From Stegostoma tigrinum (lineage: Eukaryota): a DNA stretch of 64,000 nucleotides. This document shows, piece after piece, positions 1 through 56,104 of the stretch (the stretch's first letter is position 1; every line of letters begins with the position of its first letter). Made by a program: the position numbers and the translations under genes. The DNA is taken from contig NC_081357.1 in NCBI RefSeq assembly GCF_030684315.1, positions 14,014,255-14,078,254 of the forward strand, read 5' to 3'. The notes beneath the pieces are model-generated. The model was not told where the DNA came from, ran no database searches, and saw only the letters and a program-made list of their open reading frames with translations.

Positions 1-327
1 AAGAGTGATGTCCCCAGAGGGGATGCACACAATAGCCAAAAACCCTGGCATTAATTATGGATGTCAACACGTGTCCAAGCTTGCTGCTAATTTCACTACT
101 GGGTTTAAACTGGCTCCCATCTTCCACTCACCCCAAATTCACACACTGTTCTGCATTAAAGTTCATAAATGCTGACTGGTCAGTAGAGTATTTTAATCCC
201 TATGATTCATTACTTTATGATGATGCAAGAAAATTGACATGGCATGGTCATTTAGCTTGCCAATGGAACTCATCGGATCCTTGCATGGAACACAGGTTAA
301 ATATAAAACAAAGTACTACTCTTATTT

Positions 328-541
328 GTATCACTGATAATGGGAACTGCAAGATGCTGGAGAATCCAAGATAACAAAGTGTGGGGCTGGATGAACACAG
401 CAGGCCAAGCAGCATCTCAGGAGCACAAAAGCTGACGTTTCAGGCCGAGACCCTTCATCAGAGAGGTCCGAAACATCAGCTTTTGTGCTCCTGAGATGCT
501 GCTTGCCCTGCTGTGTTCATCCAGCTTCACACTTTATTATC
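328..541 (-). mobile_element. Penelope-derived foldback mini-element with hammerhead core
   Basis: Inverted arms (~368-442 vs ~468-542). Minus-strand CTGATGA-AGG..CCT-GAAA-CGTC at 432-461. TSD-like tactactcttattt (314-327) / tactgctctcattt (542-555). Confidence 0.85.
432..461 (-). ncRNA. Minimal type I hammerhead ribozyme motif
   Basis: CUGAUGA AGG GUCUCGG CCU GAAA CGUC AG: all core nucleotides present. Confidence 0.75.
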
Positions 542-1419
542 TACTGCTCTCATTTATTCATGGCCAGCAATAATAATAATCTTTAATAGCAGAGGTAAAC
601 AAATCTTGCATATTACATAGATTTTATCAGCTGTCCCTACACCTCGCATGGAACATTCATTCAAGTCTCACAGACGACAGGCAATGTCCATCCCCTCCAC
701 CACACACAAAGGGTCCTCTGCAGGAGGCACTGCATTAATTCACCAAGTTATTCAACAGCACCCATCTCCTAGCAACCTCTGTTATGAAGGAAAGACAAAG
801 ACAAAGACACATTATTGACTTCCCTCGTGGTGATATTCATCGCCATTGCTCTGTCAATGTCAGGGAATTCCTTACGAATCCATTGTGGGAGCAATGTCAG
901 CACCAGATCCATTGTGGTTCATGAAAAAGGCCCAGGGAATCTCATTAGGGAAACGCAAGAGAAAAGTGCCACCTTGCGAAGAACACTTCCCGAGAACAAA
1001 TTATATAATGTCGGGCAACCGCGTGCACTCATTGTGTGACTGAGTTTTCATTAGAACTTCTGTTTTAGATTATTTCCCTCAATCAATAATGTTACTCCTG
1101 TCCAAAAATTGCAGAATGGCACAGCAGAAGAGAAAGCAACTTGGCCCATTGTGTCCCTGTTAGCCAAACAGCCGTCCAACCAATCCCACCACTCGGATTT
1201 TCCCAACACTCCTGAAAAGTTCTCCCATTTTCCCTTTGAAATATTTGTTTCATGGCCCTCCAGATCGCTTTAAAATGTTATTGTGGAATCTAATTCCACT
1301 GGTCTTACAGACAGTTTATTTGCATTTATCAAGGGCTTTTTTTGACCTCAGGATGATGCAAAACCCATCTCAGACAACCTTCAAAGTGTTCAGATTTTAT
1401 TCTTTCACAGCATGACAGC

Positions 1420-1704
1420 ACTGCTGACCAAATCAGCATTTATGGTCCATTCCTAAGTGCATTTAAGTTTCAACCACATTGCTGTGGGTCTGGAGTCACA
1501 TGAAGGTCAAACCAAATATGGATGTCAGTTTCTTTCCCCGAAGGACATTAGAAAACCAGGTAGGTTTTTCAGCTATAATCGTAATCATCATTAGGCTCTT
1601 AATTCTAGATTTTTTATTGAATTCAAATTCCACCATTTGCCATGGCAGGATTTAACCCCAGGTCCACAGAACATTTGTTCGATCTCTGTATCAACAGTCT
1701 AGCA
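1420..1704 (-). mobile_element. tRNA-derived SINE (family sharing its 3' tail with the non-CR1 LINE), degenerate
   Basis: caaccacattgctgtgggtctggagtcacatg block shared with 51539-51570 and, inverted, with ~24870-24900. Confidence 0.7.
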
Positions 1705-2450
1705 ATAGAAACATAGCAACATTGATGATAGGAGCAGGAGGAGGCCATTCGGCCTTTTGAGCCTGCTCTGCCATTCTTCACAATCATGGCTGGTCGTCCA
1801 TCTGAGTAGCCTAAAGCTGCTTTCTCCCCATAACCTTTGATCCTATTTACCCCAAGTGCTATATCTAGTTGCCTTTTGAACGCATTCAATGTTTTGGCAT
1901 CGACTAATTCCTGTGGTAATGAATTCCACTGGTTTACCACTCTCTGGGTGAAGAAATGTCTCCACATCTCTTTCCTAAATGGTCTACCTTGAATCCTGAT
2001 GCTGTGACCCCTGGTTCAGGACACACCCACCATCGGGAACATCCTCCCTGCATCAACCCTGCCCAGGCCTGTTAGAATTTTATAAGTGTCTATGAGATCC
2101 CCCCTTATTTGTCTGAACTCTAGCGAAAACAATCCCAACCTAGTCAATCCCTCCTCATACATCAGACCCACCATCCCTGGAATCAGACTGGTAAACCTTA
2201 GCTGCATTCCCTCAAGAGCAAGAGAATACTTCCTCAGAAAAGGATACTAAAATTGCACACAATATTCCAGACTTGATCTCACCAAGGCCCTGTGTAACTG
2301 CAACAACACATCTCTGCTCCTGTACTCGAAACCTCTCGCAATGAAGGCCAACATACCAATTGCCTTCTTTACTGTTTGCTGTATCTATATACTTACCTTT
2401 AGCGACTGGTGCACAAGGACACCCAGGTCCCGCTGTACACTCCCCTCTCC

Positions 2451-2890
2451 TACACTGGACAAACAGGCAGAAAGCGAGCCACCAGGATACATGAACATCA
2501 ACCAGCCACAAAACGACATGACCCAATATCACTCGTATCCTTGCATACAGATGAGGAAGGACACCACTTTGATTGGGACAACACATCCATCCTAGGACAA
2601 GCCAAACAGAGACACACACGAGAATTCCTAGAAGCATGGCATTCCAACCGGAACTCCATCAACAAACACATTGATTTGGAGCCAATCTACCATCCCCTGA
2701 GAAAAAGAACTGGAAATGACATCACCAATGCAGGAAATGATATCACCAACCCAAGGAAACCTAAACAGATAAATAGAAAGCGGGACATAACACCAGCGCT
2801 TCGTCGGAGGCTCACTGATGATGTTACCTAGAATGGTGACGAAACGTCTGAAAACGAACCTTCCAGCTCAGTGAGCAAACTCACATCCAG
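2451..2890 (+). mobile_element. 5'-truncated Penelope-like element (Poseidon-like GIY-YIG end plus pLTR)
   Basis: YTGQTGRK..RIHEH..LVSLHTDEEGHHFDWDNTSIL..REFLEAWH..SINK is a GIY-YIG C-terminus. Perfect 12-bp TSD actcccctctcc at 2439-2450 and 2891-2902. Confidence 0.92.
2812..2851 (+). ncRNA. Minimal type I hammerhead ribozyme
   Basis: TCA-CTGATGA-T-GTTACC(tagaat)GGTGAC-GAAA-CGTC-TGA. Helix I TCA/TGA, 6-bp helix II, palindromic ACGT helix III, GUC triplet. Confidence 0.85.
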
Positions 2891-3344
2891 ACTCCCCTCT
2901 CCCAATTTGAGGCCATTGTTGTCTGGATTTGTTGAAATGGGCTAAGACAGAGACCACATGCAGCTGTTTCCTCTTTGTACCTCATCCTGCCTAGTGTTGT
3001 GGAAAAGCCAGCGGAAGCCAGTCATATGACTCAGGGTATAAACCACTGCTGGAACTCAAGTCTCTAACCACAGAGCCAGGAGACACGGATCATCTGTTCA
3101 CAGGAGCTGCTACAAGGCTTTGACACCAGCAAATGGACTCACCCATGACAGTTAACAAACTATCATATATTCATGGACTCGCACATTTGAAATTTGTGCA
3201 ATGACACCAGCACAACTGGTCATTTTGAGCTTATCCCTGGAGTAACTGTGTTCCCCTCTGTGGTGATTATTTAGTAATCTATTAGCCATTTGTCCATCAA
3301 TTCAGTGGGGGATTCCATCATCAGTGTAGGGGAGATCGAACAAG

Positions 3345-4436
3345 GATTCCCCAGCACCAATGTCGACAGGGCCCTCAGCTGAGTCTGACACATCATCCGC
3401 ACTTCCACCCTCACCCCATCTCTTCCCTCCCGCAACAGCGACAGAGTTCCCTTTGTCCTTACCCACCATCCCACCGGCATCCACATCCAGAAGATCATGA
3501 GTCGCCATTTCTGCCACTTCCAATGAGATGCCACCATCAAACACATATTCCCATCCCCTCTCTTGTCTGCCTTCTGTAGGGACCGTTCCCTCCGAGACAC
3601 CCTGGTCCACTCTTCCTTCACACCCAACACCCTCCCACAGCCCCACAGCACCACAGCGAAGGTGCAACAGCTGCCCATTTACCTCCTCCCTCCCCAGTAT
3701 CCAAGAGCCCAAATATACCTTCCAAGTGAATCAGCACTTTACCTGCACTTCCCAGAATCTAGTCTACTGCATTCGCTGCTCACAATGTGGTCTCCTCTAC
3801 ATTGGGAAAATGAAGCGTAGACTGGGTGACCGCTTCGTAGAACATGTATATTCTGCTCGCAAAAAAGACCCTGAGCTACCTGTTGCCTGCCACTTTAAGA
3901 CACCTCCCTACTCCCTGGCCAACATCTCTGTCTCTGCCTTGCTGCATTTCCAGCGAAGCCCAACGCAAGCTGGAAGAACAACACCTCAGTTTCTGCTTGG
4001 GGGCCTTGCAGCCCTCTGGACTCAATATCGAGTTCAATAATTTTGGGGCCTTGTCTCTCACTTGTCCTCACCCCCTACCCCACACTCCAGACCTTGTTAC
4101 CGCATAGCCTGCCACTACACACCCCTGTTGTTAGTCACCAGCAGTCCCCATTAACAGCTATTCACCCTCCCAGCCAGATCATTGTCAACTCCTTTGTCTA
4201 TCCAACTGCTCTTGTCTCTCTTCAGGCTCTATCCTATCGTTTACCCCCTACATGATCACCCTCCATAAGTTCTGCATATGAACTGATGTTTTCCCAGCCA
4301 CCATCAGTTCTGAGGAAGGGTCATCAGACCCGAAACGTTAAGTCTGATTTTTTCTTCATAGATGCTGCCAGACCTGCTGAGCTTTTCCAACAACTTCTCT
4401 TTTTGTTCCTGATTTACAGCATCTGCAGTTCTTTCA
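3345..4436 (+). mobile_element. Penelope-like element 3' part (Neptune-like Cys-rich GIY-YIG plus pLTR), frameshifted
   Basis: FTCTSQNLVYCIRCSQCGLLYIGKMKRRLGDRFVEH and, in another frame, AFCRDRSLRDTLVHS and QRKLEEQHLSFCLGALQPSGLNIEF. A hammerhead follows in the 3' repeat. Confidence 0.92.
4306..4343 (+). ncRNA. Minimal hammerhead ribozyme (GUU triplet variant)
   Basis: agtt-CTGAGGA-A-GGGTC(atca)GACCC-GAAA-CGTT-aa: perfect 5-bp helix II. Confidence 0.8.
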
Positions 4437-5060
4437 CTTTTGATATATTTCAAAGTCAGGACGGTGAGTGGCTTAGAAGAGAAACTGCAGTTGGTTGTAT
4501 TCCCATGTATCTGCTACCCTTGTCCTTCTGGACTGAAGTGCTTGTGGCTTTACAAGGTGCTATCTAAGAATTTTTGGTGAATTGTATCCCGTGAACTAAT
4601 GAAAAACAGCTTTTCTTTAGCTCTTCAGATGCCCAGCTCCACAGGATAATGCTAGAAGTAACATTGCCCCACTCTGTTTGAGAATCTGAAATAGGACAAG
4701 AAGCTAGGTCATTACCCTTTCGTCTATAGCAACTGATTTTTGAATTAACCCCAAAACAACAGGATTCCCCTGTGAGGTGAAAATTGGATTGTACTATTGG
4801 TATCAAGGTCATTATGTGTAACAGAATACAATGCAGACCTGTTTTCCAATTTGCGAGGGACTAGTAATCCTAGTAAATGAACCCACCGGATAACTATAGA
4901 GAAAAGTTAGTGTTAAATAGGTCCAGTCAGTTTCTGGTTTTGAGACAGAAGGAAGCAAATTTCAACCTGAAACATGCTATACCATATCTTACATGGATGC
5001 TTGCGATTCTGAGCTTTCATGCCAAAGTGGAAAACGGGCCATCTTTCATATCATTGACAT

Positions 5061-7265: not shown

Positions 7266-7345
7266 TCAAACCTGACCTGCTGTATTCCTCCAGCTCCACA
7301 CTGTATTGGCTGTGACTCCAGCATCTGCAGCCCTTGCCATCTCTG
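7266..7345 (+). mobile_element. PLE pLTR 3' tail fragment
   Basis: cctgacctgctgtattcctccagctccacactg...ctccagcatctgcag matches the mini-element family. Weak 11/14 TSD at 7252-7265 / 7346-7359. Confidence 0.7.
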
Positions 7346-8014
7346 AGCTTGAGACTCTGGTGCCGTGATAGATCCTCCATTCAAAAGTACATAAGGTATC
7401 AGACATGCTTCGGTTAGGAGAACCCTTGCCTCCTGAGGCTGAAAGTAATTGTTTCTGCAGCTCCAAGCAGAAAGGCTTGAATTAATTCACACTACATTGT
7501 TACAATCCTTTGTCTGATCCAACCTTGTCAGTTCACAGTTTTCCAATTATGGGCTTGGACATGCCTCTCATGTTCAATAAAGCCTGTGAGCACCATTGCC
7601 TATCAGAGTTTCAAATTGTACACGAACAAGTGAGGAGGTTTAACAATACACTCGAGAAATACACTAAAATGTGGACTAAGATTAAAGCTAAATGAAAAAA
7701 AAATTAGCAGGATCGCTGCCCCCTCTATTAACGGAAAATGGTTAGTGACTTGATTGGGTTTCCAGTCATTAATTTGAGAAATATTCCAGCCTCAGGAATT
7801 TATTTACAACTTTTGTTTTGGGGACTTCAGATGAAGTTTCATCTAAAACCTCAGAGCTAGAGTGGATAAAAATATCAACTGTTAACTGGAAGATGATACA
7901 TTTGCTCGTGTGTCAAACAACTCAATGCCATTCTGCGGCTGTGTTTTTCCAATTGAGCTTCAACCATCCCACATAGACTGCAAAACAGCTAAACTGCAAG
8001 CTAAAGCAACTTTG

Positions 8015-9530: not shown

Positions 9531-9632
9531 AGGAGATAACAAGGTGTAGAGTTGGATGGACACAGCAGGCCAGGCAGCATCAGAGGAGCAGGAAAGCTGA
9601 TGTTTCGGGTCCAGACCCTTCTTCAGAAAATG
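9531..9632 (-). mobile_element. PLE pLTR fragment with decayed hammerhead
   Basis: Minus strand CTGAAGA AGGG TCTGGA CCC GAAA CATC AG followed by the family tail. Confidence 0.8.
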
Positions 9633-9923
9633 AACTGCTAAGGCTCTGAGCGAAAGAGTATTAGACACTCCAGCTTCAATAGTTGTTCAACAACACGGCC
9701 TGAGACATCTCATTATAGCATTATTACTGCCTGTCTGCTATCATTGTCACAGTGACGACATTGTTAATTTATAGTTTTACCGACAGCTGCCAAAGGTTAT
9801 TAAGGGATTAGGTCTCTTTGAGGTGGGATAATGAATAGAAATTCATGTTCTCATAAATGATTAAGTACATGACGGGATGTTTTAAATGGGCTTTTATCAG
9901 CAAAAATGTTTGATAAATAGTGA

Positions 9924-10622
9924 AGAGAGAATGGGAACTGCAGACGCTGGAGAATCCGAGATAACAAAGTGTGGGGCTGGATCAACACAGCAGGCCAAGC
10001 AGCATCTTAGGAGCACAAAAGCTGACATTTCGGGCCGAGACCCTTCGTCAGAAATGGGGTAGGGGGAGAGGATTCTGAAATAAATAGGGAGAGAGGGAGA
10101 GGCAGATCAAAGGTGGATAGAGGAGAAGATAGGTGGAGAGGAGAGAGACAAGTTAAAGAGGCGGGGATGGAGCCTGTAGAGGTTAGCACAGGTGGGGAGG
10201 TAGGGAGTGGATAGGTCAGCCCGGGGAGCACGGACAGGTCAAGGTGCCTCCCTTGTCCGCAGGTTTGATGGTGAGGTTGGGATTGGAGCGGAGGGCTGCA
10301 CGTTCTGCGGGGGAGAGGTTGGAGTGGGTGAGAGGGTGGAGAGGTTGAGGCTGTTGATGTCTCGTCGGCAGTTGGCGATGAAGAGATTGAGGGAGGGTAG
10401 GATGCCTAGGTGTGGTGTTCAGGAGGACGACTTGTGTTGGAGGTGGGTGAAGGGGTCAGCGGAGGGAGAGTGTGGCTCCCGATTAGAGAAGTACTCACCC
10501 ACTTCAACCCTCTCCCCATCCACCTTCTCTGATGAAGGGTCTAGGCCCAAAACATCAGCTTTTGTGCTCCTAAGATGCTGCTTTCCCTGCTGTGTTCATC
10601 CAGCTGCACACTTTGTTATCTC
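9924..10622 (-). mobile_element. Internally deleted PLE: 3' pLTR, ORF fragment and inverted partial pLTR
   Basis: Perfect 13-bp TSD tgataaatagtga (9911-9923 / 10623-10635). Minus strand ~10246-10325 encodes NLSPAERAALRSNPNLTIKPADKGG (PLE DKG motif). Hammerhead-like cores at 10022-10051 (-) and 10529-10558 (+). Confidence 0.9.
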
Positions 10623-10761
10623 TGATAAATAGTGAGGTCTGTAATAGACATGTAGATTGTTTTTTATATTTGGTCTCGACATGGGTCCGATGTCTGCCTT
10701 TGGTGGACAGTGGGTGAATTGACAAGGATGGAAGGTGGGTCATTCAACGGTGAGTTCTCGA

Positions 10762-12545
10762 GTTGGAGAGTCATACAGCCCAGAAACAGACCCTTCGGTC
10801 CAATTCATGTGCACTGACTGGACATCCTAAGCTGACTTAATTCTATTTGCCAGCATTTGGCCTAAATCCCTCTAAACCCATACTATTCATATAACCATCC
10901 AGATGCCTTTTAAATGTTGCAATTGTACAACCCAATACCACTTCCTCTGGCAGCGCATTCCATTCACACACCAGTCTCTGTGAGAAAACGTTACCCCTCA
11001 CGTCCTTTTTAATTTTTTCCCCTCTCACTTTAAACCTCTGCCCTCTAGTTTCAGATTCCCCCAGCTTAGGAAAAAGACCTTGGATATTCACCCTATCCAT
11101 GCCCCTCGTGATTTTACAAACCTCTCTAAGAGCATCCCTCAGCCTCGAGGTTCCAGGGAAACATATCCCAGCCTATTCAGCCTCTTGCTGTAGCTCAAAC
11201 CCTTCAACCTAGCAACAGCCTTGTTTAGGAGACAGTAGGAGCTGCAGATGCTGGATAATCTGAGATAACAAGGTGTAGAGCTGGATGAACACAGTAGGTG
11301 AAGCAGCATCAGAGGAGCAGGAAAACCTGACGTTTTAGGCCTCGACCCGAAATGTCAGCCTTCCTGCTCCTCTGATGCTACTTGGCCTGCTGTGTTCATC
11401 CAGCTCCACACCTTGTTTTCTAACAACCTTGTTAATCTTTTCTGCTCCATCTTAAGTTTAACAATGTCTTTCCTATAGAAGGATGAGCAGGATTGTATGC
11501 AGTATTCCAAAAGTGGCCTCCCCAATATCCTGTAGAGCCACAATATAACCTCGCAACTCCTACACTCAATGCACTGACCAATGAAAACAAGCTTTCCAAA
11601 TGCTTTCTTCACCATCCTGTCTACTTGTGACTCCACTTTCATGGAACTCTGCACCCGCAGCCTTAGGTCTGTTTGTTCAGCAAAACTGCTCAGGACCTTA
11701 CCATTAAATGTATAAGCTCTGTGCTGGTTTGCCTTACCAAAATGCAGCACCTCACATTAATTGAAATTAAACTCCATCTGCCAGTCCGCAGCCCATTGGG
11801 CCATCTGACCAAGATCTCATTGTACTTTGAGATAACCTTTGTTACTGCCCAATACACCACCTAATTTAGTGTATATGCAAACATACTGGCCATACCTCCG
11901 ATATTTACATCATTTATATAAATGAAAAGGAGCAGTGGACCCTGCACCAATCCTTGTGGCACACAGAACTCTAGTCCAAAAAACAACTGCCTTCGACCAC
12001 CCTCTGTCTCCCACTTTCAAACCAATCTTGTGTCCAATTGGCTAGCCATCCCTGGATCCCAAGTGATCTAACCTTGCTAACCAGTCTACTGCGCGGAACA
12101 TTGTCAAACACTTCGCTGAAGTCTGTAAAAACAAAGCCTTCCACTCTGCCTTCATCAATCTTCTGTGTCACCTCTTCAAAAAAGTCAATCAAATTAGTGA
12201 GACATGATTACCCATGTACAAAGCCATGTTAACTGTCCCTAATCCACCTTTACCTTTCCAAATTCATGTAAATCTGTCACTCAGAATGCCCTCCAACAAC
12301 CTACCCACCACTACTCATAAAGCTCCATAGCTTTTCCTTACAGCCTTTCTTAACTCATGATAGATTAGCCAACCACCAGTCTTCCGACTCCTCACCTGTG
12401 ACTGTCAATGATACAAATATCTCAGCAAACGGCCCAGCAAATTCTTCCCTAGCTTCCCACGAAGATCTGGGATACACCCGATCAGGACCTGGGGATTTGT
12501 CCATCTTTACGTGTTTTAAGACTTCCAGCACCTCCTTTTCCGTAA
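10762..12545 (-). mobile_element. CR1 LINE (RT to 3' end), decayed, with PLE insertion
   Basis: Minus ORFs MDKSPGPDRVYPR, DFSEVFDNVPRSRL, LHFGKAN..LLEYCIQ and FSQRLVCEWNALP. Confidence 0.9.
11226..11421 (-). mobile_element. PLE foldback mini-element inserted in CR1
   Basis: Inverted arms meeting inside the hammerhead region (~11340). TSD aacagccttgtt (11214-11225) / aacaaccttgtt (11422-11433). Confidence 0.85.
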
Positions 12546-12667: not shown

Positions 12668-12715
12668 AAATCAGAGTTAATGTTTCAAGTCCAGTGACCC
12701 TTCATCAGAACTGGA
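12668..12715 (-). mobile_element. Isolated pLTR/hammerhead relic (same type as 4306-4343)
   Basis: Minus strand CAGTT CTGATGA AGGGTC ACTG GACTT GAAA CATT AACTCTG. Confidence 0.65.
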
Positions 12716-14230: not shown

Positions 14231-14409
14231 GAAATCCTCCATTTTGCACCCTTGCCACCCTCATTGCTTCCTCTAAACACAGAGGAGTACAGATTGATCA
14301 GCTGAGAGAGGGTGGTATGTGCTAAGCAACAGTGAAAAGCTTCAACCATTGCCACATCCTGGTGCTATTTTAAATAGTTTAAGAATAAAAAGATATGACT
14401 GAAAGAGAG

Positions 14410-14995
14410 GAGAGTATAGTTGGGGAGGTAGGGAGGGGATAGGTCAGTCCAGGCAAGATGGACAGGTCAAGGAGGTGGGATGAGGTTAGTAGGTAGGAAA
14501 TGGAGGTGCGGCTTGAGGTGGGACGAGGGGATAGGTGAGAGGAAGAACAGGTTAGGGAGGCGGGGACAAGCTGGGCTGGTTTAGGGATGCAGTGGGGACG
14601 CATCCCAAAACCAGTCCAGCTTGTCCCCGCCTCCCTCACCTGTTCTTCCTCTCACCTATCCCCTCATCCCACCTCAAGCCGCACTTCCACTTCTTACTTA
14701 CTAACCTCATCCCGCCTCCTTGACCTGTCCGTCCTCCCTGGACTGATCTATCCCCTCCCTACCTCCCCACCTATACTCTCCTCTCCACCTATCTTCTTTT
14801 CTCTCCATCTTCGGTCCGCCTTCCCCTCTCTCCCTATTTATTTCAGAACCCTCTCCCCATCCCCCTCGCTGATGAAGGGTCTAGGCCCAAAACATCAGCT
14901 TTTGTGCTCCTAAGATGCTGCTTGGCCTGCTGTGTTCATCCAGCTCCACACTTTGTTATCTCGGATTCTCCAGCATCTGCAGTTCCCATTATCCC
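14410..14995 (+). mobile_element. PLE pLTR with 5' inversion
   Basis: About 185-bp inverted arms centred at ~14595, decayed hammerhead at 14869-14898, full family tail. TSD tgactgaaagagag (14396-14409) / tgaccgaaagagag (14996-15009). Confidence 0.88.
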
Positions 14996-16464
14996 TGACC
15001 GAAAGAGAGTCTGTTTTCATTCTGCCACCTCTGCCACGAGATCTGAGCCAGTTCACCAACAACACCTCTGTTATCAGCCCTCCTCCACCCCTACATTGCT
15101 GCCTGTGCCCAAGCCACTAATGTAGGAGCCGCCATTCTCCAGGCACCATATTTTCACTGCTGAGCCCACCTCACCGCTGCTGCCAGGTCCCATGCTAGAC
15201 CCACGCTCGCCCCTCAACCAGCAACGCTTGGCTCCGCTGCTGCTGCCAACACATCAGTGACCAGGAGACCCTGGCTCCAGGTCTACCACAAGCTGGAGTT
15301 ACCCTCCATTACCAGGAGTATCCTCTCAGGACCTATCACAACTGGGATCTGGAAAATTGATAAATTGGGGGCCATTTGCATGCTATTTAAAATCACTAAC
15401 TTCTCGACTCTGGGAATAGCTGGAGTCAGTTTCCAACAAGCTACTCCATTGAGGTTTGACACTAAGTAAGGGTCTCAAGTCACCATTCCCAAAGAACAAT
15501 AGTAAACCATTTGGATTGAAACTCAGACATGCTCACTGTAAAGTTGTTCTTGAAGGTACCAACATTTACTTCCAGATGGTTTAAATTATATTCTGTTCTC
15601 AATCCTAGATGCCTGTTGCTGGGATTCCTTTTTTTTCCCAGAAAGTGAATTTGTATTGCAATAGTTACCATCCTATTCAATTAGTCCACTTGTCAGTAGA
15701 TGCCAGTGTTATAACTGAACCAGAACAGCCTCCCTTGGGAAGCAGCAAGGCCTGGAACACAAGTCTTCAGTACTATTGCCACAAAGTTGTCTTGATGTAT
15801 TTTGAGCTTCGCATCTGAAACCAGGTTTATGTTCTAATCTCATTTGTGTGGGTCATGCAGAGAAAACCACTAACATCAGTGGAATTAAGCCTGTTATACA
15901 CTGCAACAGTGTTATATCTAGTGTTGTAGATAAAGACTACAACATAAGTAAAACATGCACACAATAGATTGTTTTCAAGAGCTTCTGAAAAACAATAAGC
16001 TAATTTTTAAACAAAAATTGCTCGAGTGAACGGGTGACGTGGGAACGGTCAGAGTTATTTTCAGTTTGCCCCAGAAGTTTCCTAAATGAAGCAGGAAGTT
16101 TTATTGCTCCCGGCTCATGTTGGAGGCTCCTACTGTCTAATATTTCCATGAAACTCCTCTTACGGCCCTGGGGTATCAAAGGCACAATGTCCCAGTGCCC
16201 GAGGAGCTGGGAAAACTAGTTGGTGGGTGAACTTACTAGGACGAGAAGGAGGGCAGAATTTTCCCATGCTGACTAATGGCAGGGAAGGGCAGATGCATTT
16301 TGAAGTGCCGAGGGAGCTCTCGTGTTTCCATTACCGGCAGGAGCCTAGCAGCCGGGATGCGGAATTAGCTGCTGCATCTGGTTTCCCACTGGTGCGAAGT
16401 GCTGTAGACTGCGATGTTAACACCCTGGGAACAGGCAGATGTTTTGCATGAATAGCAACAATGA

Positions 16465-17690: not shown

Positions 17691-18545
17691 TTTGTGGTCC
17701 CCAGAACATTACCTGGGTCTCTGTGAGTTGAGTGATAATACAATTAGGCCCCATTGCCTTCACCCTGTTCACTGAAACCTGTTACTATTCAGTAAGAAAC
17801 AAAACCCACATTTTATGAGGCTTAATTCACTTAATGAACACGATAACAAGCAATAATCCCAATTTCTAGGCTCCTCACTGCCCACGGGTGAGAATGTCAT
17901 CTCAATGCCCTGAAGGCTTGTTGAAAATCTGATTTATTGCTCTCGAGGTCGAGAAAAGTGATTTCTTATGTAATTCTCCCAGATGACGTGCCATGGTTTC
18001 ATAGGATCCTGCCCCAAATTTAAAATCCAAGTAACAGTGTACTCTTCATAAAATCCCATTAAGTTCACATGACCCTTATCTCAATGTTAATTGCAAGTCT
18101 CAAAAGAGCCTCCGAGCAGTAATTCAATTATTAAGAAACCAACTTGTTTGAATTAGGAAGCCGCAGTGGAATCTTCTAAAATGGTATCATTGACACATGT
18201 TCACAATCATTTTCATGTCACTGCAGTGAATTATCACAGTAGGAGTTACTGACCATAAAATAAAAACAGAATTAGAACCATTATAAACTCCAGCTGGACA
18301 TATTGGATCTATTAGCGAGGGCAGATGAACTGTGAAACTTGTTGCTCTTAATATTGGTTCTGTTTTGAAAACTTACACTTTAAAATGCCACCAATATTTA
18401 CCACCTCACCAGCTTTGGTCATGCAGCACACCACAGAAGGATATTCAGAGATAGAAATTGCAGACGTTCTTGCGCATTTCCAGTGTTTGAAACAGACACA
18501 ATGAGGCCTGTTGATGCATTGGAGAGACCAAGAGAGATGCACATT

Positions 18546-18645
18546 AGATTTCTGAAGAAGGGTCTTGACCCGAAACATCAGTTTCCATGCTCCTCTGATG
18601 CTGTTTGGCCTATTGTGTTCATCTGGCTCTGTACCTTGTTATATC
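18546..18645 (+). mobile_element. 100-bp PLE pLTR insertion starting at the hammerhead
   Basis: CTGAAGA AGGG TCTTGA CCC GAAA CATC AG. Perfect 13-bp TSD agagatgcacatt (18533-18545 / 18646-18658). Confidence 0.85.
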
Positions 18646-30005: not shown

Positions 30006-30159
30006 TTATCTCAGACAACAAACTGCACAAGAGTATGAAGTATTAACTGAGTCAATATTGACTCTTTGGGAGCCTAACCACGGGCAGTTAATACAAACAA
30101 AGGCTAGTTGCCCTTCCTAACTAGCACCGATGCTGCAGCCAACCAATATCCACTTGATA

Positions 30160-45229: not shown

Positions 45230-45432
45230 AATTAAAAGCAAAATACTACGCATTTTGGAGATCCGAAACAAACACAAAACGCTGGAGGACTTCAGCAAGG
45301 TCTGGTAGCATCTGGTGGAGAGAGTTTACTCAAGTTCTGAAGAGTCCTGTCAGAATTGAAACGTTAACTCTGTTTCATTCTCCACAGATGCTGCCAGACC
45401 TGCGAAGTTTCGCCAGCATTTTGTGCGTGTTT
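45230..45432. mobile_element. Old PLE-derived foldback element in intron 3
   Basis: Arms cacaaaacgctgg..ggtctggtagcatctg vs cagatgctgccagacc..ccagcattttgtg. Degenerate hammerhead agttCTGAAGA..GAAACGTTaact at 45333-45369. Confidence 0.75.
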
Positions 45433-45634
45433 GGCTCTGGCATATACATCGAGCTGACTCAGAACCTTCGCATTACTCCTGTGGAAAGCAGCTTGGAGTT
45501 TCAAGAGTCCAGAACAACGCTCCGCCTGGTTTAAAAGGTGCAATGTTTGCGACAAGCAGAGAAAAAAGGGTCCTCTTGAAATAAAAGAGAGAGAGAGCGG
45601 GGGAGGGGAGAGGAAGTGAAGCAAATATTCTTAC

Positions 45635-46036: not shown

Positions 46037-47307
46037 CTGTAAAACACAAGGTGGGGGTGAGGGGAAATTTATTAAAACCAGCTTAACTTTACAGCGCCCT
46101 CAAAGATTCAGAAGCAATACAAACACAAGCCTCTTCTTCAAAAGAGGATACAGGCACCCCCACTGCCACCCCCCTCACCTTCCCTGCTGGGACAATGCAA
46201 GGAATTATTTTTACATTACAGTACACTCAAGGCACTTCACTGTCTTGAGATGTTTCATTAGATTTACCTCTCATTTATACGTCATTATGTCACATTAAGT
46301 AAAAACAAAACACACCAAGGAGGATGAATGGAAACATATAACGCAGTTGTAAGGGTTCGACCAATTGTGTAGGTTGACCTCAGTCAAGGCACTGTGGCGG
46401 CACAATAATTGATCTCAATGTAGAGGAGGGGGAAGGAAAATTTACCACACAGCCTTGTTTTTGGTATATACAGCAACACAGGTAAGAGAAATAGGCTGCA
46501 CTCCCACAGCCATGGATTATTAGCAGTCAACCTAAGGAAGAACAGGCGTAAATCATGCGTGTGGATTTAGGACCGGGCCAAGCAAGGACCCAAGGAGTAT
46601 CACACAGTTAATCATCTCTGCCCCATGACTATGTGCCAGAGGTTGCGTGGCAACTATAGCACAGCAAAGGAGACCAGATCTTCATGACAGGGAGGAATAA
46701 AGTGAGAAAAGACTAGAGGGAAAAGCAAAATCAACAAGAGTTTGAAAATGGAAAAATGTAGGAAATAGGACCAAGTTACAGTAATGTTGAAAACGTCATC
46801 TTGATCAACATTGATTAAAACTACAGGTCATAAGCTGCATTCATACACAATAAACTTAGGCCTCGCCTGACGAAAAGGCACCGAAGTGGAATGGGGCAGT
46901 AAATCAAAGCTTAAGGTCAACAACAGGAGAAGGGGCCAGGACTCAAACACCATATTCTGTCTTGATTATAATTATTGGGATGGGGGTAAAAGGGACAGAC
47001 AGGAAATTCAAAAATACAACGCTTAACTACAAATCAAATTTTATTCAACCAAGTACAGAAATGACTACTGTGCCTGAACACAGAACTCACTCTGAAATGG
47101 CTGAAGCTCCATACAGCGTGGAGAGTTGGTGGCATCAAATTTCAATTTGCACACACAACAAGCAGATAGATGGATGTAACAACAAGGAGGAAATTACTAG
47201 TGCACTGCAGCATCCCATAAATCTCCAAACTGTTCAACGCCATTTGCTGCTCTTCAGATACTGAAGCAGTCCATGATCAAACGCAACAATATCTGGACAA
47301 TACCCAG

Positions 47308-47487
47308 TGTGGAGCTGGAGGAACACAGCAGGCCAGGCAGCATCAGAGGTGCAGGGAATCTGATGTTTCGGGTCAGGGTCCTTCTTCAGAAGCTTTCCTG
47401 CTCCTCTGATGCTGCCTGGCCTGCTGTGTTCCTCCAGCTCTCCACACTGTGTTATCTGTGACTTCAGCATCGGCAGTTCTTACTATC
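47308..47487. mobile_element. PLE foldback mini-element in intron 1, inserted in a LINE fragment
   Basis: Inverted arms. Decayed minus-strand hammerhead at 47360-47389. TSD tctggacaatacccag (47292-47307) / tctggataatatccag (47488-47503). Confidence 0.85.
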
Positions 47488-48291
47488 TCTGGATAATATC
47501 CAGGCTTGGTTTGGCAAGTGGCAGGTGACATTCATGCCAAATAAATGCCAGGCAATCACCATCTCCAATTTGCCTCTGAACCTGGGCCTCCCAGTGCAGG
47601 GGTAAAATCCACTTGCTGTAGAGGTGTGTAACAACATCTCCAAACAGGTTGTTTTGAAAAATAAGGCTAAATAAAAATTTATTCTGTACGATTTCTGTGG
47701 CTCTTGAGGGATAGGGAGACCCCGGAGGCCCAGGTTCAAGCCCTACCAGAGGTGCATATTACACCTCCAAAAAGGTTGATTAGAAATTACCCAGTCATAC
47801 CTTTCATGTCCTCATAACAAAAACATTACCTCAAAATAGGCAGAAGAAGAGAAAAACAAGCAGAGGCACACCAATGCAGACTCAGCAGCATGCAAGACAA
47901 GTTTGTTTTTGTTTTTGAACTGGAAAAGTCACCAAGACTTCATATTAGAAATCATTATCATCCGAATCAGTGGCAGTGCCAGTGGTACATTCCAAAGAGC
48001 AAGAAAGATAATTAAATCTTGACAGTTGACATCAGAGATTTAGTTGAATACGTTAGTGAGCAAAGCTCAGAAAAAAACAGGAGGCTGCCTTGTATGTCTG
48101 TGCAACTTGTAAACATTAATTTGGAATAGCACTTTGCTGCTAATTCAGCAGATGATCATTACAAAGTCAGCAAAACAATTTTGAAACTTGGCTCTTTGGG
48201 TGAACGTTCAGCCGGTTTGCACAGTTGGCTGGCTCTGTCAGCTTTCCAACTGATCTCCCGTCGGTCTCCAGAAACCATAAAACAACGTACG

Positions 48292-49629: not shown

Positions 49630-50094
49630 ATAACTGGGGTAAGGCTCTGATTTGCTACATTATTACTGATTACTCCAATAACCCAGATGGTGGACAAACA
49701 TAGAGCAACAGGGGGCCTAACCAGTTAACACTTTCCATACACTCCAGTTATCTCTTCCCAAACAACCATACACAATGCTGTTAGTCCCCTTCTATTAAGT
49801 ATTGCGCACACTGGCCTGCAAACACCATATTTTCACTCTGGTATGATTGCAAAGTATTTACGAGTTGGTACAGTGCAAACCACTTTGAAAAGGTGTTTAT
49901 TTTGGAAGTGTTAGAAGAATAGTCTACTGATTACTTGACTTTGGCAAAAGAATTTGAATGCAGCCAATGCTTACTGCACACCTCAAGCCTTCTGGAGATG
50001 TAAAGTGTACTGAAACATGTTGGCCAAGGATGTTTTACAAGCTCACCCAAAGGCTAATTAAATGTAAATTTATTCAAATAAAAGACATGGCACT

Positions 50095-50351
50095 CAGAGA
50101 TAATAGGAACTGCAGATGCTGGAGAATCCAAGATAACAAAGTGTGAAGCTGGATGAACACAGCAGGCCAAGCAGTATCTGATGAAGGGTCTAGGCCCGAA
50201 ACGTCAGCTTTTGTGCTCCTGAGATGCTGCTTGGCCTGCTGTGTTCATCCAGCCTCACATTTTATTATCTCAGGAGCACCGTCGGCTTTTGTGCTCCTGA
50301 GATGCTGCTTGGCCTGCTGTGCTCATCCAGCTTCACACTTTGTTATCTTAC
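50095..50351. mobile_element. PLE mini-element: one inverted and two tandem pLTR segments
   Basis: Perfect 15-bp TSD aaaagacatggcact (50080-50094 / 50352-50366). Intact hammerhead core at 50178-50207 (+). Confidence 0.92.
50178..50207 (+). ncRNA. Minimal hammerhead ribozyme core
   Basis: CUGAUGA A GGG(ucuagg)CCC GAAA CGUC AG. The 5' strand of helix I is largely lost at the inversion junction. Confidence 0.7.
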
Positions 50352-51457
50352 AAAAGACATGGCACTGTTGTCTATAAAGCACTAAAAAAAAGACAGAGAC
50401 AAAGAGAGGTAGTGAGGTCAGGAATGGTGTTCCTGCTAAGCTGAATGGATATGTGGCGTCCAAATGCACTAAACTGTGTCTAACAAGTTAAAAGAAATCC
50501 ACAGGCCTAATCTTACTTAAAGACAGAAAAGCTAAATTTTAAAAGAGAACATTGGCCATGAGTTTCATTATCGTCCAATGTTTGAAGACACACCCTGTAA
50601 AATTAGCTTTTGGAGGAGTTACACACAATCTTATCAACAGAAGCAATTAGTGGAAATAAAGTGTACAAGATCCTTCACTAGAAAATGAAAGAAAACATTT
50701 TCTTCCAGGGCTATCACAATCACAAGATCCACAGAGCTCAGCAAAATAGTTGATGATAACATTTTCCAATACAGCTGAACAGTAAGCTCAAAAGTATCTG
50801 TTAAAGTGGTTGCAAGACAGAAAAAATGCACCCAGGACATTGATTGCTACAACAGAAAGAAAGAATAGTTGCCATCCTAGGAGGGCCAATTTAAAAATAG
50901 GTCTGAAAGATCACTTCCGCCAATCCAACTTTGTGACTATAGTTAGTTACACTGCATTTTGCAAAAATATAGCGGTATGGCTTGGGTTTAAAAAAACTAC
51001 AGAACAAGAATGCGTGACTGACAAATACGACACACGCATTGTTGTTAATTAACCCCGCTTATAAACATAAAAGTGTACAGAAGGTTCTTCCTTTCCTGTC
51101 CATCTGTGGGTCTGTTTATCTACATGATAGCAGCTCGTACACACCATTTTGACTGGGAGAGTCAGCACGAGAAAGGTTTACAGTTGCAAGCAAGTGGTGT
51201 GGCACAAGACATGGCTCAAATGGAAATTGTTACTTTAAGGAAAATAACAAAGAAAGGGGGCTAGATCCGATACAGTAACTGAATGGCCATGGCTTTCAAA
51301 ACGATTTGGTGCATTTAGAAATGCACCTATCTTAAAAAATATTGACCACATCCACACAAGCAGGCTTGATAGTAGCTACCCTTTAGAAAATGATGGCCAC
51401 TGGATATCTTAAGTGACCCACAGCCCATTAAGGACATTTGATGTGTTTTTATTATAT

Positions 51458-51792: not shown

Positions 51793-51799
51793 CTGTTAA

Positions 51800-52085: not shown

Positions 52086-54909
52086 AAAGGTGCTGATGAA
52101 CCAGCTTATTTCAGTAGTGGGGCTTGGAGTGGTGGAAGAATTTTATCATGTCACTTGGCACAGGAATTCTGCCCACTTGGTTCCAAGGAAGAAAGCCCCA
52201 ATGGGATTAAGAGCTTGTTAAATATTCTGTAGCCGTGATCATAATGGCACTTAGCTGGTTAAACTCAAATTGTTCTCGCACACACACCTGAAGCTCCTTG
52301 AACTTGGGCATTTGGTTAATGTTTATCCAACATCACAGGGCTTGGACCACATCCCTGTGGGAGACTGAGTGCAACAGCAGACAGATAGAAACTCTTTAGG
52401 TGACACTGAAAACCAAGGCCCTATCTCAGATAGGCACTGAAGATCCTGAGGCAATGCTGAAGAAGAACAGTACAGCAGCTCCCCACCAAGTGTTCTGACC
52501 AACTCTCGAGTCAATTTTTTTTATATAAAAGAGGTTATACAGCGATCAGTGTTATTTTTTGGAATTTGGTGCGCGTAGACTGAATGTCAATTTGCCCTAC
52601 AGAGAAGGAGGCTACATTCCAAAGAACTTCAAAATATCCTGACATTTTGAAATGCACCACATAATGGAGAATGAAAGGAAGTTGTGTTCAAAACATTAAA
52701 CCAATGGTGTTTTTCATTTGTAGACCAGTGTGCTACCACTAAGTCTATTTTTACTGAAGGAAAAAAATAGTAGATATGTGTCAGCAAAAAGGAGCAGAGG
52801 TCAAAGATTACTCATATTCTTATTCTTGGGAAGAGAGGGAAATATAAATAGTGGCACGTGATATTTTTCATAATCCATATGAACAAAGAGATACTCTGGA
52901 CTATAATTAGATTCAAATTATATGCTGTGAAGGCATTATATTGATTTGTAGAACTTTGCGGTGGTGAGTGAATGCAACATTTCATGCAACAACAGAAGTA
53001 AGTCCATTTGCTTACAGACAAACTTATCTTGAGGCATGTGATACAGATATACGAATAACCCTGTCAACCAAAGGCAGTGTTCCTCCAAGAAAATAGAGAA
53101 GCACAGGTCTGCTAAGTGCCACAGGAACGAGATTGCAGGGAGAGGAAGATGAAAGTTCCCTTTTTAATGAAAAACACAGGAAAGGAGCAAGTGCAACTAT
53201 ATATCAAATCTATTTCCACCCAAAAGCAGCTTGTAAAGGGTGATAAAACTTTCTGAAAGGGCACAGGTTCCCTACTTCCCATTCTAGATCAACAGGCACA
53301 GGCAGGTTGTCATGAAAATAATTAGAGAAACAGAAAATATAGAAACTCCCAGTATTTAAGAGAGTTGACAGCTGATTGTGATCAAGGGGGACCTGACAGC
53401 CTGTGCAAGGATACATATTGACTGTTCATTGAAGGACATATGGGTCTAGTCATTTTCTCTGTAAGAACAAGTCACATTGTATTTCTGCCCTATGAATCAG
53501 CAATATTATCATTTAGCAGCATCTGTAGCAAAATAAATACAGCTTAATGCAGTAAAACATTGATGAGAAACAGATATCCAAAAATACTCAACAGCTGGAA
53601 AACTCCTACGCGATCAGATGTACTTTCAATAAAAAGCCAATTACATAGTTACACACATTCAAAAACATAGTGGACGTGCAAACATTTTTCAAACTACTGA
53701 ATTTTTCAAATTGTTACATTCTCAAAAAAAAAGCACTCTCACTCATTGGGAAACAGATTCTCCAAGCAGATACACTTCCTGTAAAGGATACACATATTCT
53801 CCTCCACATCTGTCTCTCTCAAATGAAACCTTCAGGCATCCGAGCTCTGTCCAAGATTCTGAATTGTCAACTTCTCCCTTTGACCAACACAGAAATATTC
53901 CAAGAATTTGGTTTTGGGTTTTTCTTTAATAGATTCCTAACACAATGTTTGGTGAAGAAAACTTGTATTTATATCATTCCAGACGACCTCGTCTGCCTTG
54001 CTATCTTTGGGCAGTTATTACTGATGGTAAAAGCACAAGTTTTGGTAGGGATTACAACTCGATTTACATGTGTTACATGTAACAAATATGTTATTTCAAC
54101 ATAATGGCAGAACAGTCATTTCTGTATAGCTCGAGTCTATTACCAATCGGGTCCTGGTGCACAGCAACATGACACTCCTTAAGGAGACTGTTTAACATCA
54201 CTTGGGTGCTATGCTAGATAACAGTGTGATCAGAGCAGCACAATTCAAGCTATTTTCCACACCCTTCCAAATACAGCATTCCCTTCCTTTCTACATTAGC
54301 CCACTCTTGTCCATCCTCAATCTCCCTCAAATTTTGAGCTCTGGTCCCCAGCTCAACATTAAAACGAAGCTAAATGAACTAAAAAAAAAGGAACTGAAGC
54401 CAAGACAGGCAGGAAAGAAGCACAGTCCTGACAAAATGCAACTTTTTAACGTTAAAGGCTGGATCATCATTAGCTGAGTGATAACAAGAATCCTGCTTTT
54501 AGTACAAGATTCAAGATGTTCCCTGGTGTTCTGGGGATTGTATTTCACAATTTCATTGCCTTCTGAGAAAAATTACTAATCAGTGGCCTTGGTTATAATC
54601 TAAATTTAGATTAGTAAAAGTGAAAAACAGTTACCATTTTTGTACCATCAAAAACAATTTAATTGTTTCTCTATTCCCTCCCTCTCTCCAACCCAATGTG
54701 TCTTTGGCACTCGTATACAACAGAAAAATATTGTGGTCCATAGAATATACATATCACAGCTGAGAATATCCTGAAACATGTTATTGAAAATTCTAGATGT
54801 TAAAAAAAAGGCCATTTTAAAATCATTGACCTAGCATGATCCTTCAGTCTCACCATTACGCTCGGAAATCATTTCTCACCATCACACCAAAACAATAGGA
54901 TTTCTATGT

Positions 54910-55024
54910 AACAGAGATAAGAAAAAGTGTGGAGATCTTAGCACATGCTTGGCCAGCTGTGTTCATCCAGCTTCACACTGTGTTATCTCGGATTCTCCAG
55001 CATCTGCAGTTCCCATTATCTCTG
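54910..55024 (+). mobile_element. PLE pLTR tail with short inverted 5' end
   Basis: Perfect 15-bp TSD ataggatttctatgt (54895-54909 / 55025-55039). Family tail gttatctcggattctccagcatctgcagttcccattatc. Confidence 0.88.
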
Positions 55025-56104
55025 ATAGGATTTCTATGTCACCTGCTGAAGATAATATGATGCATTTTCTGCTTGATAGTTTGAGATTGCATCTATTTGT
55101 CTTACTCGTGTCATTCTCTAACTTTAGTCAGACCTCTCAGACTGCGTGACATATCCCATGGATAATCTGTACTCCAGCTACATTTTCTCATCTGAACTCC
55201 ATATATCCCTTGATGCCCTTGCCCAGCAACATAAAATCTATTAACCCAAATCTTGCACACTTCAAATGATTCACCCAGGGTTCAGTTTTGTTTTGTCGTA
55301 AGTACATGTATGTGGAGGAGTTTGGAGAACAAAACAAAACACCACATTCTCACCTTTCTGAAGAGCGGTTTCCCAATTTCATTCACTAGATTTTAGTTTT
55401 AAGACTAAGATTGTATTTCTCTCATTTTCAATTCCCTCCATCCAAACAAACACACACAATCTGTTAATATCAATCCTATCAAGTCCTTCTCAAACTTTAA
55501 ATCTTGCCTCAGATCCCCTCAGTTTTCAAAACGTGAAAGAGTAAAAGCCAATTTTTTTTTTAATCTCCGAGGTGACGCCATTTGTCAAAACAGACAGGCT
55601 TAACTTCCTCTCAACTAAGATCTCAGTGCCAAGAATGAACCTTGCGACTCTTATATAGTCTACTTTCAACACTTCCAATGTCTCCGGGGCTTCCAGAGCC
55701 CAAAGCTGAAGCACTGAATGAGGTGCGGTCTGAATCCAAATACCTCTGCAATAACAGTGACGGAATAAAACATTTTGAAGTTTAAACACTGAACACAGAG
55801 TCAGCTCGAGAGTGTAATTAAAGAGCAAGGAGATCTCCAGCCTACTTCCGGGAGAACACACCCAGTCTTTTTGTTGCAATTAGTAGGACTTCTTTTGGAC
55901 TTCTCCCTCCCTGCCAGTTTTATCCCCCATACAAGATATTAACTCTATAATATTGTTTTGTCATGGTCCTGCACTTCATAGCCAATCATCTGCTCTTTAT
56001 TTTGTACCCAACCTGGGTTCACATAGCCATTGGGAACAGTGAATGGAAGAATAACTTTATCCACCTTGGCTGTGTATACCCACACAGACACATTATAATA
56101 CATA

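What the first reader, a model, noticed from the sequence alone, without database searches (positions are those of the whole stretch)
314..55039. Population of short hammerhead-bearing Penelope-derived elements with their own TSDs (retrozyme-like)
Seen in sequence: about 15 elements of 50-700 bp share a pLTR-type terminus, and most retain the motif CTGANGA-A-stem II-GAAA-CGTH, intact or decayed (328, 7266, 9531, 9924, 11226, 12668, 14410, 16830, 18546, 23501, 26876, 30160, 45230, 47308, 50095, 54910). Nine have clear 12-16 bp flanking duplications, five of them perfect (9911/10623, 18533/18646, 22615/23641, 50080/50352, 54895/55025), so each is an independent insertion event. Established: PLE pseudo-LTRs carry minimal type I hammerheads, and non-autonomous ribozyme retroelements (retrozymes) exist in animals. 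Inference: these are either extreme 5'-truncation products of an autonomous PLE or a self-propagating non-coding family. At roughly one per 4 kb here they would be a very large genomic reservoir of ribozyme motifs.
Basis: partly seen in the sequence, partly recalled or inferred. Interest (0 to 1): 0.72.

Follow-up and report, generated by a model that had tools for sequence, protein, structure and literature searches.

The report
Run-off stubs of Penelope retrotransposons
These small repeats are stub insertions of a very common Penelope-type jumping gene rather than a self-copying ribozyme family, and the places where they stop likely record where that gene's RNA starts and possibly where its built-in ribozyme cuts, which gives a direct way to test how these poorly understood elements insert.

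Summary
The 16 elements and nine TSDs are real. 'Most retain the hammerhead' is overstated: 10 of 16 span the core, 3 keep it intact. They are ends (pLTR plus tail) of protein-coding Neptune/Nematis-type Penelope-like elements; an intact parent exists (L094). They are not retrozymes: 98 junction types in 99 two-armed copies, no short-only clade, no arrays in the window. Nor are they random truncations. In 1.48 Mb sampled (320 elements, about 690,000 genome-wide), 5' ends pile up just upstream of the ribozyme (15.6 per nt against 0.22 beyond), often behind an untemplated G (2,478 G against 814 A genome-wide), as a copied cap would give. Mirror-armed copies pair one core end with one tail end (100 of 106), and both arms are short or both long (98 of 100). 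A second peak lies at the predicted cut site (3,567 against 600 and 502), with a hairpin-stall rival. Best reading: both nicked target strands are primed on one template and run off its 5' end. The scan found the wall, the arm rule and the cut-site hint before on other DNA of this genome; the cap-G and arm-concordance tests are mine. No RNA evidence.

The parts
314..555 (.). Two-armed A1 stub: minus arm -32..+106 (328-466, tail end, core intact), plus arm -13..+65 (464-542, core end); TSD 314-327/542-555 with 2 mismatches. Numbers count from hammerhead C17 = 0
2403..2892 (+).
3449..4447 (+).
7273..7346 (+). Old A2 stub +27..+102, no hammerhead
9533..9629 (-). A2 stub -30..+66, starts at the wall, core decayed
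9911..10635 (.). Two-armed element, perfect 13-bp TSD (9911-9923/10623-10635). Minus arm: tail end to -320, joined to a piece of the RT-coding region (10246-10493). Plus arm -47..+65. Both cores decayed. The internal junction is absent from the 20 best RT-piece matches
11214..11433 (.). Two-armed A2 stub (-19..+99 / -18..+65), lacks the first box; 12-bp TSD with 1 mismatch
12668..12713 (-). Family B stub -34..+11, starts at the wall, core decayed
14396..15009 (.). A1 element: minus arm -296..-113 (no pLTR end), plus arm -290..+103; 14-bp TSD with 1 mismatch; core decayed
16830..16938 (+). Family B stub, lacks the first box
18533..18658 (+). A2 stub -31..+69 with a G just 5' of the wall; perfect 13-bp TSD; core decayed
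22615..23654 (.). Perfect 14-bp TSD around a two-armed A2 stub (23500-23640; -24..+96 and about +48..+66) with a CR1-like LINE piece (about 22634-23500) inside its tail end
26877..26981 (+). A2 stub -32..+73, starts at the wall, core decayed (G8 changed)
30155..30247 (-). A2 stub -25..+67, lacks the first box
45230..45435 (.). Old two-armed B-like stub; plus arm core at 45337 keeps both boxes but stem II is decayed; inside the TASK-2-like gene
47292..47503 (.). Two-armed A2 stub: minus arm from the wall (-29..+55), plus arm starting at the predicted cut site (+1..+101); 16-bp TSD with 2 mismatches
50080..50366 (.). A1 stub with template switches: minus +12..+102, plus -28..+65 (core intact at 50178), short inverted piece, plus -3..+66; perfect 15-bp TSD
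54895..55039 (.). Two-armed A1 stub wholly downstream of the hammerhead (plus arm from +23); perfect 15-bp TSD

Best explanation
These are stub insertions of the terminal repeat (pLTR plus tail) of protein-coding Penelope-like retrotransposons, likely made when both nicked target strands prime reverse transcription on one template and run off its 5' end. Shown: the parent element, TSDs of about 15 bp, two fixed 3' ends (+65 and +102 from hammerhead C17), one of each in mirror-armed copies, a sharp 5' wall at -29 to -33, and a second peak at +1. Inferred steps: (1) the endonuclease makes staggered nicks about 15 bp apart; (2) one strand is primed at the core site and the other at the tail site, both inside the RNA; (3) on uncut RNA that starts just before the hammerhead both cDNAs run off after 95-135 nt and often copy the cap as an extra G (about 0.75); (4) on RNA cut by the hammerhead they run off at +1 (about 0.5); (5) long and more-than-unit copies come from a circular or tandem template (shown as a pattern; covalent circle about 0.35); (6) the two cDNAs join head to head through short homology. 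The stubs are likely dead ends.
For: Parent: L094 is a 3,680-nt unit with a 1,105-codon open frame, a Cys linker and a GIY-YIG-like end, and a 13-bp TSD; the window's 9911 element carries a piece of its RT region. 3' ends are bimodal in A1, A2 and B. Core+tail pairing in 100 of 106 mirror-armed copies against about 50% expected (p=2e-23; arms ending below +85 counted as core). TSD in 79 of 107 two-armed elements against 20 of 300 control places. 5' ends per nt among 419 arms: 15.6 at -33..-26, 1.57 at -40..-34, 0.22 at -130..-41. The wall is a real boundary: it abuts the opposite arm or the TSD. It matches the 5' end of stem I in each family and an initiator-like word in A2 and B (sequence; initiator consensus recalled). 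Untemplated base at the wall, not explained by an opposite arm: G 16, A 4, C 4, T 4 of 28. Genome-wide, G before -29 2,478 against A 814; control at -25, G 36 and A 64 of the first 100 of 3,037 rows (counted by eye). One template: both arms long 18, both short 80, mixed 2 of 100 (p=1e-17); arms agree at 615 of 691 diagnostic sites against 0.52 shuffled; L106 has the same private junction and base change in both arms. Cut site: starts at +1 3,567, at 0 600, at +2 502; of the first 50 of 2,085 mirror junctions, 27 centre on the palindrome at +1, 2 on the one at -4 and 7 on the one at -12 (by eye). Long copies: the pLTR upstream of the ORF start reaches from +72 to beyond -1360 in 30 loci, past the wall, so a linear RNA starting at the wall cannot be their only template. 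In vitro, an anole PLE cuts and extends both strands, starts at two internal sites and uses uncut RNA (PMC11167929, parts 1-2 of 4 read).
Against: No RNA evidence of any kind. The G excess is weak in family B (G 51, A 49 of the first 100 of 865 rows), wall positions were picked after seeing the data, and part of the A1 excess can come from the opposite arm (5 palindromic pairs in the first 100 rows). The +1 peak is not clear in the 426 sampled arms (5 at +1). 64 of the first 100 genome-wide +1 rows are the perfect palindrome, which two arms ending at +3 would also give; the MFE fold pairs the first box with the bases at the cut site, a hairpin at which RT could stall; starts at +3 were not counted. 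Stem I is only 2 bp in A1 and A2, and PMC11167929 found no RNA reads ending at the cut site in anole. PMC11167929 also saw no difference in start site between strands, which does not by itself predict the core+tail rule. Arm agreement could partly reflect later gene conversion. Pfam gives only a sub-threshold GIY-YIG hit (E=0.053) and no RT hit for the parent. 170 of 298 elements are single-armed and only 45 of those show a TSD.
Confidence: 0.75

Rival explanations
1. The short copies are a self-propagating non-coding family (retrozyme- or SINE-like): solo pLTRs carry an internal promoter, are transcribed from the wall and are re-inserted by the PLE protein in trans.
For: A fixed 5' end is also what such an element would show. 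The short fraction is higher in A2 and B than in A1 (long arms 61 of 160, 23 of 153, 10 of 113). The fly Penelope promoter is internal to the pLTR (PMC2377424, passages). Mini-tandem units with a hammerhead in each repeat exist elsewhere in this genome (L106, L189).
Against: 98 junction types in 99 two-armed elements; the one case of shared junction and TSD (L059/L184) is a segmental duplication. Nearest neighbours do not share the short/long label more than shuffles (A1 0.495 vs 0.495; A2 0.456 vs 0.585), and every common subfamily holds both. The L189 junction occurs only at its own locus among 40 scored matches. In the anole PLE the RNA needed for activity extends past the start sites (PMC11167929), a part the stubs would not carry (inferred by analogy).
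Confidence: 0.08
2. One cDNA is made and then folds back or self-primes at a palindrome to give the mirror arm; truncation points reflect RT stalls at RNA hairpins, not RNA ends.
For: Self-priming was proposed for head-to-head repeats with palindromic junctions (PMC3846280, passages). Many junctions are palindromic. A stable hairpin closes at +2. Fold-back also explains arm agreement.
Against: The wall lies 5' of the whole hairpin, after RT has passed it. Arms usually end at different 5' positions with gaps or short overlaps, and either arm may be the longer. When the tail arm is templated beyond the core arm's 3' end, or arms differ by up to 2.5 kb, a plain fold-back cannot supply the sequence. 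It does not explain the extra G.
Confidence: 0.12
3. Ordinary random 5' truncation, with the wall an alignment artefact or the result of later recombination between pLTRs.
For: PLE copies are known to be heavily 5'-truncated (PMC8557442, passages). The sequence upstream of the wall is pyrimidine-rich and differs between subfamilies.
Against: Wall arms abut the opposite arm or an intact TSD; a 70-fold drop in 5' ends past the wall; the same wall in three families; the upstream pLTR of full-length copies has no fixed start, so recombination would not give one.
Confidence: 0.05

Closest known systems
Insertions of endonuclease-bearing Penelope-like elements with inverted pLTR and 30-40 bp tail (PMC8557442 passages and Fig. 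2 legend; PMC3846280 passages)
   Same: Partial tandems, an inverted 5'-truncated copy, a tail often at one end only, TSDs, heavy 5' truncation; CX2-5CxxC linker as in Neptune and Nematis.
   Different: Here most insertions (222 of 320) consist only of the terminal 135 nt or less, with a fixed 5' wall, a near-strict core+tail rule and concordant arm lengths; the passages I read do not report these.
Minimal hammerheads of metazoan PLEs (Cervera and de la Pena 2014, PMC4209133, parts 1-2 of 4 read)
   Same: Core boxes, extra base before stem II, G10.1-C11.1, palindromic 15.2-16.2, no helix III; mostly single dispersed motifs from truncated PLEs, some pairs on opposite strands 100-700 bp apart; circular template proposed there.
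   Different: Stem I is 2 bp (A1, A2) or 4 bp (B); numbers are far higher (about 140,000 strict motifs by extrapolation from 65 in 1.48 Mb, against 4,000-9,000 reported for coelacanth and frog); genomic ends hint at cutting at the predicted site.
PAc (Poseidon of Anolis) in vitro mechanism (Frangieh et al. 2024, PMC11167929, parts 1-2 of 4 read)
   Same: Both strands nicked and extended, two internal start sites that define the tail, uncut RNA as main substrate, protein-assisted hammerhead.
   Different: Other clade; here the start sites lie before the ORF; that paper saw no strand difference in start site and no RNA ends at the cut site, and did not describe run-off insertions.
Metazoan non-LTR retrozymes (PMC7229834 passages; bioRxiv 10.64898/2026.07.22.740005 parts 1-3 of 5)
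   Same: Non-coding, type I hammerhead, related to PLE pLTRs, TSDs longer than 4 bp.
   Different: Retrozymes are tandem repeats of 150-450 bp with a hammerhead in each unit, forming families and circular RNAs; the window's elements are single or mirror-armed, with unique junctions.

Membership tests
EN+ Penelope-like element insertion | Parent with one ORF: RT then C-terminal GIY-YIG | tested here: met
   L094 1,105-codon open frame. GIY-YIG Pfam hit is weak (E=0.053, under cut-off). RT rests on motifs read directly (DKG named in PMC8557442; catalytic DD motif recalled); no Pfam or PDB RT hit.
EN+ Penelope-like element insertion | Partial tandem forming pLTRs | tested here: met
   In 30 loci holding the ORF start (25 after removing repeats of one locus or duplication), most carry an upstream pLTR piece of variable length.
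EN+ Penelope-like element insertion | Inverted 5'-truncated copy and 30-40 bp tail at one end | tested here: met
   111 mirror-armed elements; ends at +65 and +102.
EN+ Penelope-like element insertion | Target site duplication | tested here: met
   79 of 107 two-armed, median 15 bp; control 20 of 300.
Neptune or Nematis clade | CX2-5CxxC linker between RT and EN | tested here: met
   Seen in the L094 translation and in window 3501-4040; definition from PMC8557442.
Neptune or Nematis clade | Placement in an RT tree | not tested
   No reference PLE proteins at hand; Neptune versus Nematis left open.
Minimal PLE hammerhead | Core boxes, extra base before stem II, G10.1-C11.1, palindromic 15.2-16.2 | tested here: met
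   65 strict motifs in 1.48 Mb, 0 in shuffles; 3 of the 16 listed elements intact.
Minimal PLE hammerhead | Self-cleavage as dimer or with protein | not testable with these tools
   Only the indirect +1 peak; MFE fold is an alternative hairpin.
Non-LTR retrozyme | Tandem repeats of 150-450 bp with a hammerhead in each unit | tested here: not met
   No such array in the window; the only related row is a 78-bp, 1.9-copy repeat at 50202 without the core. Met elsewhere at L106.
Non-LTR retrozyme | Canonical type I hammerhead (6-bp helix I, helix III, loop contacts) | tested here: not met
   Stem I 2 bp in 46 of 57 strict motifs with a sound stem II; no helix III; no Rfam hit.
Non-LTR retrozyme | Own family: recurring unit and junction | tested here: not met
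   98 junction types in 99; no short-only clade; 0 of 11 window junctions recur.
Non-LTR retrozyme | Expressed as circular RNA | not testable with these tools
   No RNA holder with raw reads listed.

The most novel reading that the evidence does not exclude
The genome is a fossil record of the PLE replication cycle in three template states: capped uncut RNA that begins with the hammerhead (strong-stop-like stubs carrying a copied cap), RNA cut by the hammerhead in vivo (stubs starting at +1), and RNA circularised after cutting (long and more-than-unit copies, and occasional mini-circles that become retrozyme arrays). Both target strands are primed on the same RNA at two fixed sites. The hammerhead would then be the switch from dead-end stubs to productive copying.
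Probability: 0.3. Interest if true: 0.8.

Novelty: new variant of a known kind. Interest (0 to 1): 0.5.

Why it matters
How Penelope-like elements insert, how their pLTRs and inverted ends arise, and what their hammerhead is for are open questions (PMC11167929, PMC2377424, PMC4209133). Hundreds of thousands of stubs here give base-exact predictions: RNA start at -29 to -33, cutting at +1, one core and one tail start per insertion, one template for both strands. Each can be tested with the existing in vitro system and with 5'-end RNA mapping.

Tried and rejected
Rfam scan: no hammerhead family matched; the miRNA hits are the long inverted repeats. Pfam and PDB: no RT match for the parent ORF. 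RNA: no RNA holder listed; three guessed-RNA runs were contigs only and cannot show starts or ends; no conclusion drawn. Recurring junctions: L059/L184 is a segmental duplication, the -96 cluster is one array (L106), the -61 start in L192-L195 is one duplicated locus; L184 and the L106 repeats were dropped from the counts, but not and the density in 67. Splice acceptor as cause of the wall: rejected because the upstream sequence varies freely and A1 has no AG there. Back-splicing as source of the mini-tandems: no acceptor at the junctions (by eye). The energy of a forced hammerhead fold could not be computed. Literature: 'Penelope-like + twin priming + inverted + reverse transcription' gave 2 papers, not on PLE mechanism by their listings; 'Penelope + hammerhead + shark' gave 4 listings, none read; 'Penelope-like + cap structure + non-templated G' gave 0; one search gave 2 listings. 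These searches cover only the held library, so they do not show that the wall or cap-G is unpublished. Supplements were not read; those of PMC11167929 (Fig. S1-S2, genomic ends) may bear on the ends. 12 of 80 requested stretches did not exist; the sample comes from large contigs only.


Full report
Positions inside elements count from hammerhead C17 = 0, so the predicted cut lies between 0 and +1 and C3 is at -27 (A1, A2) or -29 (B).

1. Observation. All 16 listed places hold the same kind of terminal sequence. The five perfect TSDs are as stated and four imperfect ones make nine. The motif claim is too strong: 10 of 16 span the core, 3 keep it intact, 6 lack the first box or the whole motif. 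Two further intact cores, at 2815 and 4310, were missed. Rfam has no matching hammerhead model, but a strict minimal descriptor finds 65 motifs in 1.48 Mb and none in shuffles.

2. Origin. The 9911 element carries a piece of an RT-coding region. Searching with it and reading 20 of the matches gave L094, a 3,680-nt unit with an open frame of 1,105 codons, a Cys linker, a GIY-YIG-like end and a 13-bp TSD. Pfam support is weak (GIY-YIG E=0.053; no RT hit); the assignment rests on motifs and architecture as described in PMC8557442 (passages). The linker points to Neptune or Nematis; no tree was built. A2 and B have their own long copies. Earlier scan notes call the genome a shark's; I did not check this.

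3. Genome sample. 148 random 10-kb stretches hold 320 pLTR-bearing elements, one per 4.6 kb, about 690,000 genome-wide by extrapolation; 222 consist only of sequence downstream of -40. Of 247 arms spanning the core, 79 keep it intact.

4. Not a retrozyme family. Among 99 mirror-armed elements there are 98 junction types. None of 11 window junctions recurs in 223 loci, and the 9911 internal junction is absent from the 20 best relatives. Short and long copies share subfamilies, and nearest neighbours share the label no more than shuffles. There is no array in the window. The defining features from PMC7229834 (passages) and bioRxiv 10.64898/2026.07.22.740005 (parts 1-3 of 5) are therefore not met. 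Retrozyme-like arrays do occur elsewhere (L106, L189); the L189 junction is private to its locus.

5. Not random truncation. 3' ends fall at about +65 or +102 in all three families, the known optional tail. In 100 of 106 mirror-armed copies one arm has each end. TSDs flank 79 of 107 such elements, median 15 bp. 5' ends pile up at -33..-26 (15.6 per nt) and fall to 0.22 per nt beyond -40. These ends abut the opposite arm or the TSD. In each family the wall coincides with the 5' strand of stem I. Both arms are short or both long in 98 of 100, they agree at 615 of 691 diagnostic sites, and in L106 both arms carry one private junction and base change. One template serves both arms.

6. Is the wall the RNA's start? 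A copied cap would leave an extra G (known for other RTs; recalled). At wall positions the untemplated base is G in 16 of 28 (A 4). Genome-wide, G before -29 occurs 2,478 times and A 814 times, while at a control position A leads 64 to 36 in the first 100 rows. Family B is weak (51 to 49), and opposite-arm sequence confounds both test and control. The fly Penelope promoter is internal to the pLTR (PMC2377424, passages), which fits. I put this at 0.75.

7. Does the ribozyme cut? Starts at +1 number 3,567 against 600 at 0 and 502 at +2. Of the first 50 mirror junctions listed, 27 centre on the 4-nt palindrome at +1, against 2 and 7 on equal-length palindromes at -4 and -12. But the perfect palindrome (64 of the first 100 rows) could also come from two arms ending at +3, and the MFE fold has a hairpin closing at +2 that sequesters the first box. 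The non-palindromic remainder (36 of 100, roughly 1,300) is about twice its neighbours. Stem I is 2 bp. I put cutting in vivo at 0.5. The window's 47308 element has one arm at the wall and one at +1.

8. Long copies. In 30 loci holding the ORF start, the upstream pLTR piece begins anywhere from +72 to beyond -1360. A linear RNA that starts at the wall cannot template these; a tandem transcript, a circle or end-to-end jumping can. PMC4209133 proposed the circle. My data do not separate these.

9. Mechanism. The endonuclease makes staggered nicks; each 3' end is primed inside the RNA, one at the core site and one at the tail site; on RNA that starts at the wall, or has been cut at +1, both cDNAs run off and join head to head, giving the stubs; on circular or tandem RNA they run on. 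PMC11167929 (parts 1-2 of 4) shows both-strand extension and two internal starts in vitro for another clade. Single-armed stubs (170 of 298) would be events where the second arm is very short or lost; this is inferred. Self-priming on one cDNA (PMC3846280, passages) is the main rival.

10. Novelty and verdict. The element class, dispersed minimal hammerheads, inverted arms and tail are in print. The fixed-start stub class, the strict pairing rule and the cut-site peak are not in the passages I read, and three targeted searches found nothing on them, within a limited library. This scan has noted the same wall, pairing rule and cut-site hint in other windows of this genome; a word search for the cap-G idea found no note. 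Observation partly confirmed; interpretation partly supported; new variant of a known kind; interest 0.5.

Noticed in passing
window 40745-45838 (minus strand) and beyond: Exons of a two-pore potassium channel; the last exon matches TASK2 (E=2e-28; Ion_trans_2 at 45476-45838). The 45230 stub lies between these exons; those at 47308-54910 probably lie in upstream introns.
   Followed up: partly
window 22615-23654: A CR1-like LINE piece with a short repeated tail sits inside the tail end of a PLE stub, so the 14-bp TSD spans both.
   Followed up: partly
window 33334-35157 (minus strand): About 1.8 kb of a CR1-like LINE ORF2 broken by one stop; family name recalled.
   Followed up: no
L106:4969-6196: Retrozyme-like array: a 301-nt unit (-96..about +223) three times in one arm and again in the mirror arm, same private junction and base change in both arms, perfect 15-bp TSD. 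Recurrence elsewhere not tested.
   Followed up: partly
L189:1104-2069: 1.5 copies of a 643-nt unit (-170..+473); the junction was found only at this locus.
   Followed up: yes
L190:1339-2039; L037:8989-9410: Tandems that restart at the wall: L190 joins +577 through six A and one G to -29, as if RT ran off a capped end and jumped to an oligo-A 3' end; L037 joins about +183 to -32.
   Followed up: partly
L094:4002-7681 (minus strand): Unit-length A1 element with an open 1,105-codon frame and 13-bp TSD; 40 scored matches to its 5' region are 99% identical, so A1 was active recently.
   Followed up: partly
L106:2902-3369: A two-armed A1 stub sits at the junction of a two-armed B stub; PLE stubs may be preferred targets.
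   Followed up: no
random sample, 1.48 Mb: These three PLE families cover about 9% of the sampled bases; the GIY-YIG search had 171,610 first-look candidates.
   Followed up: no
window 14405-14785: Near-perfect 380-bp inverted repeat from the two arms; it draws spurious miRNA-family hits.
   Followed up: yes
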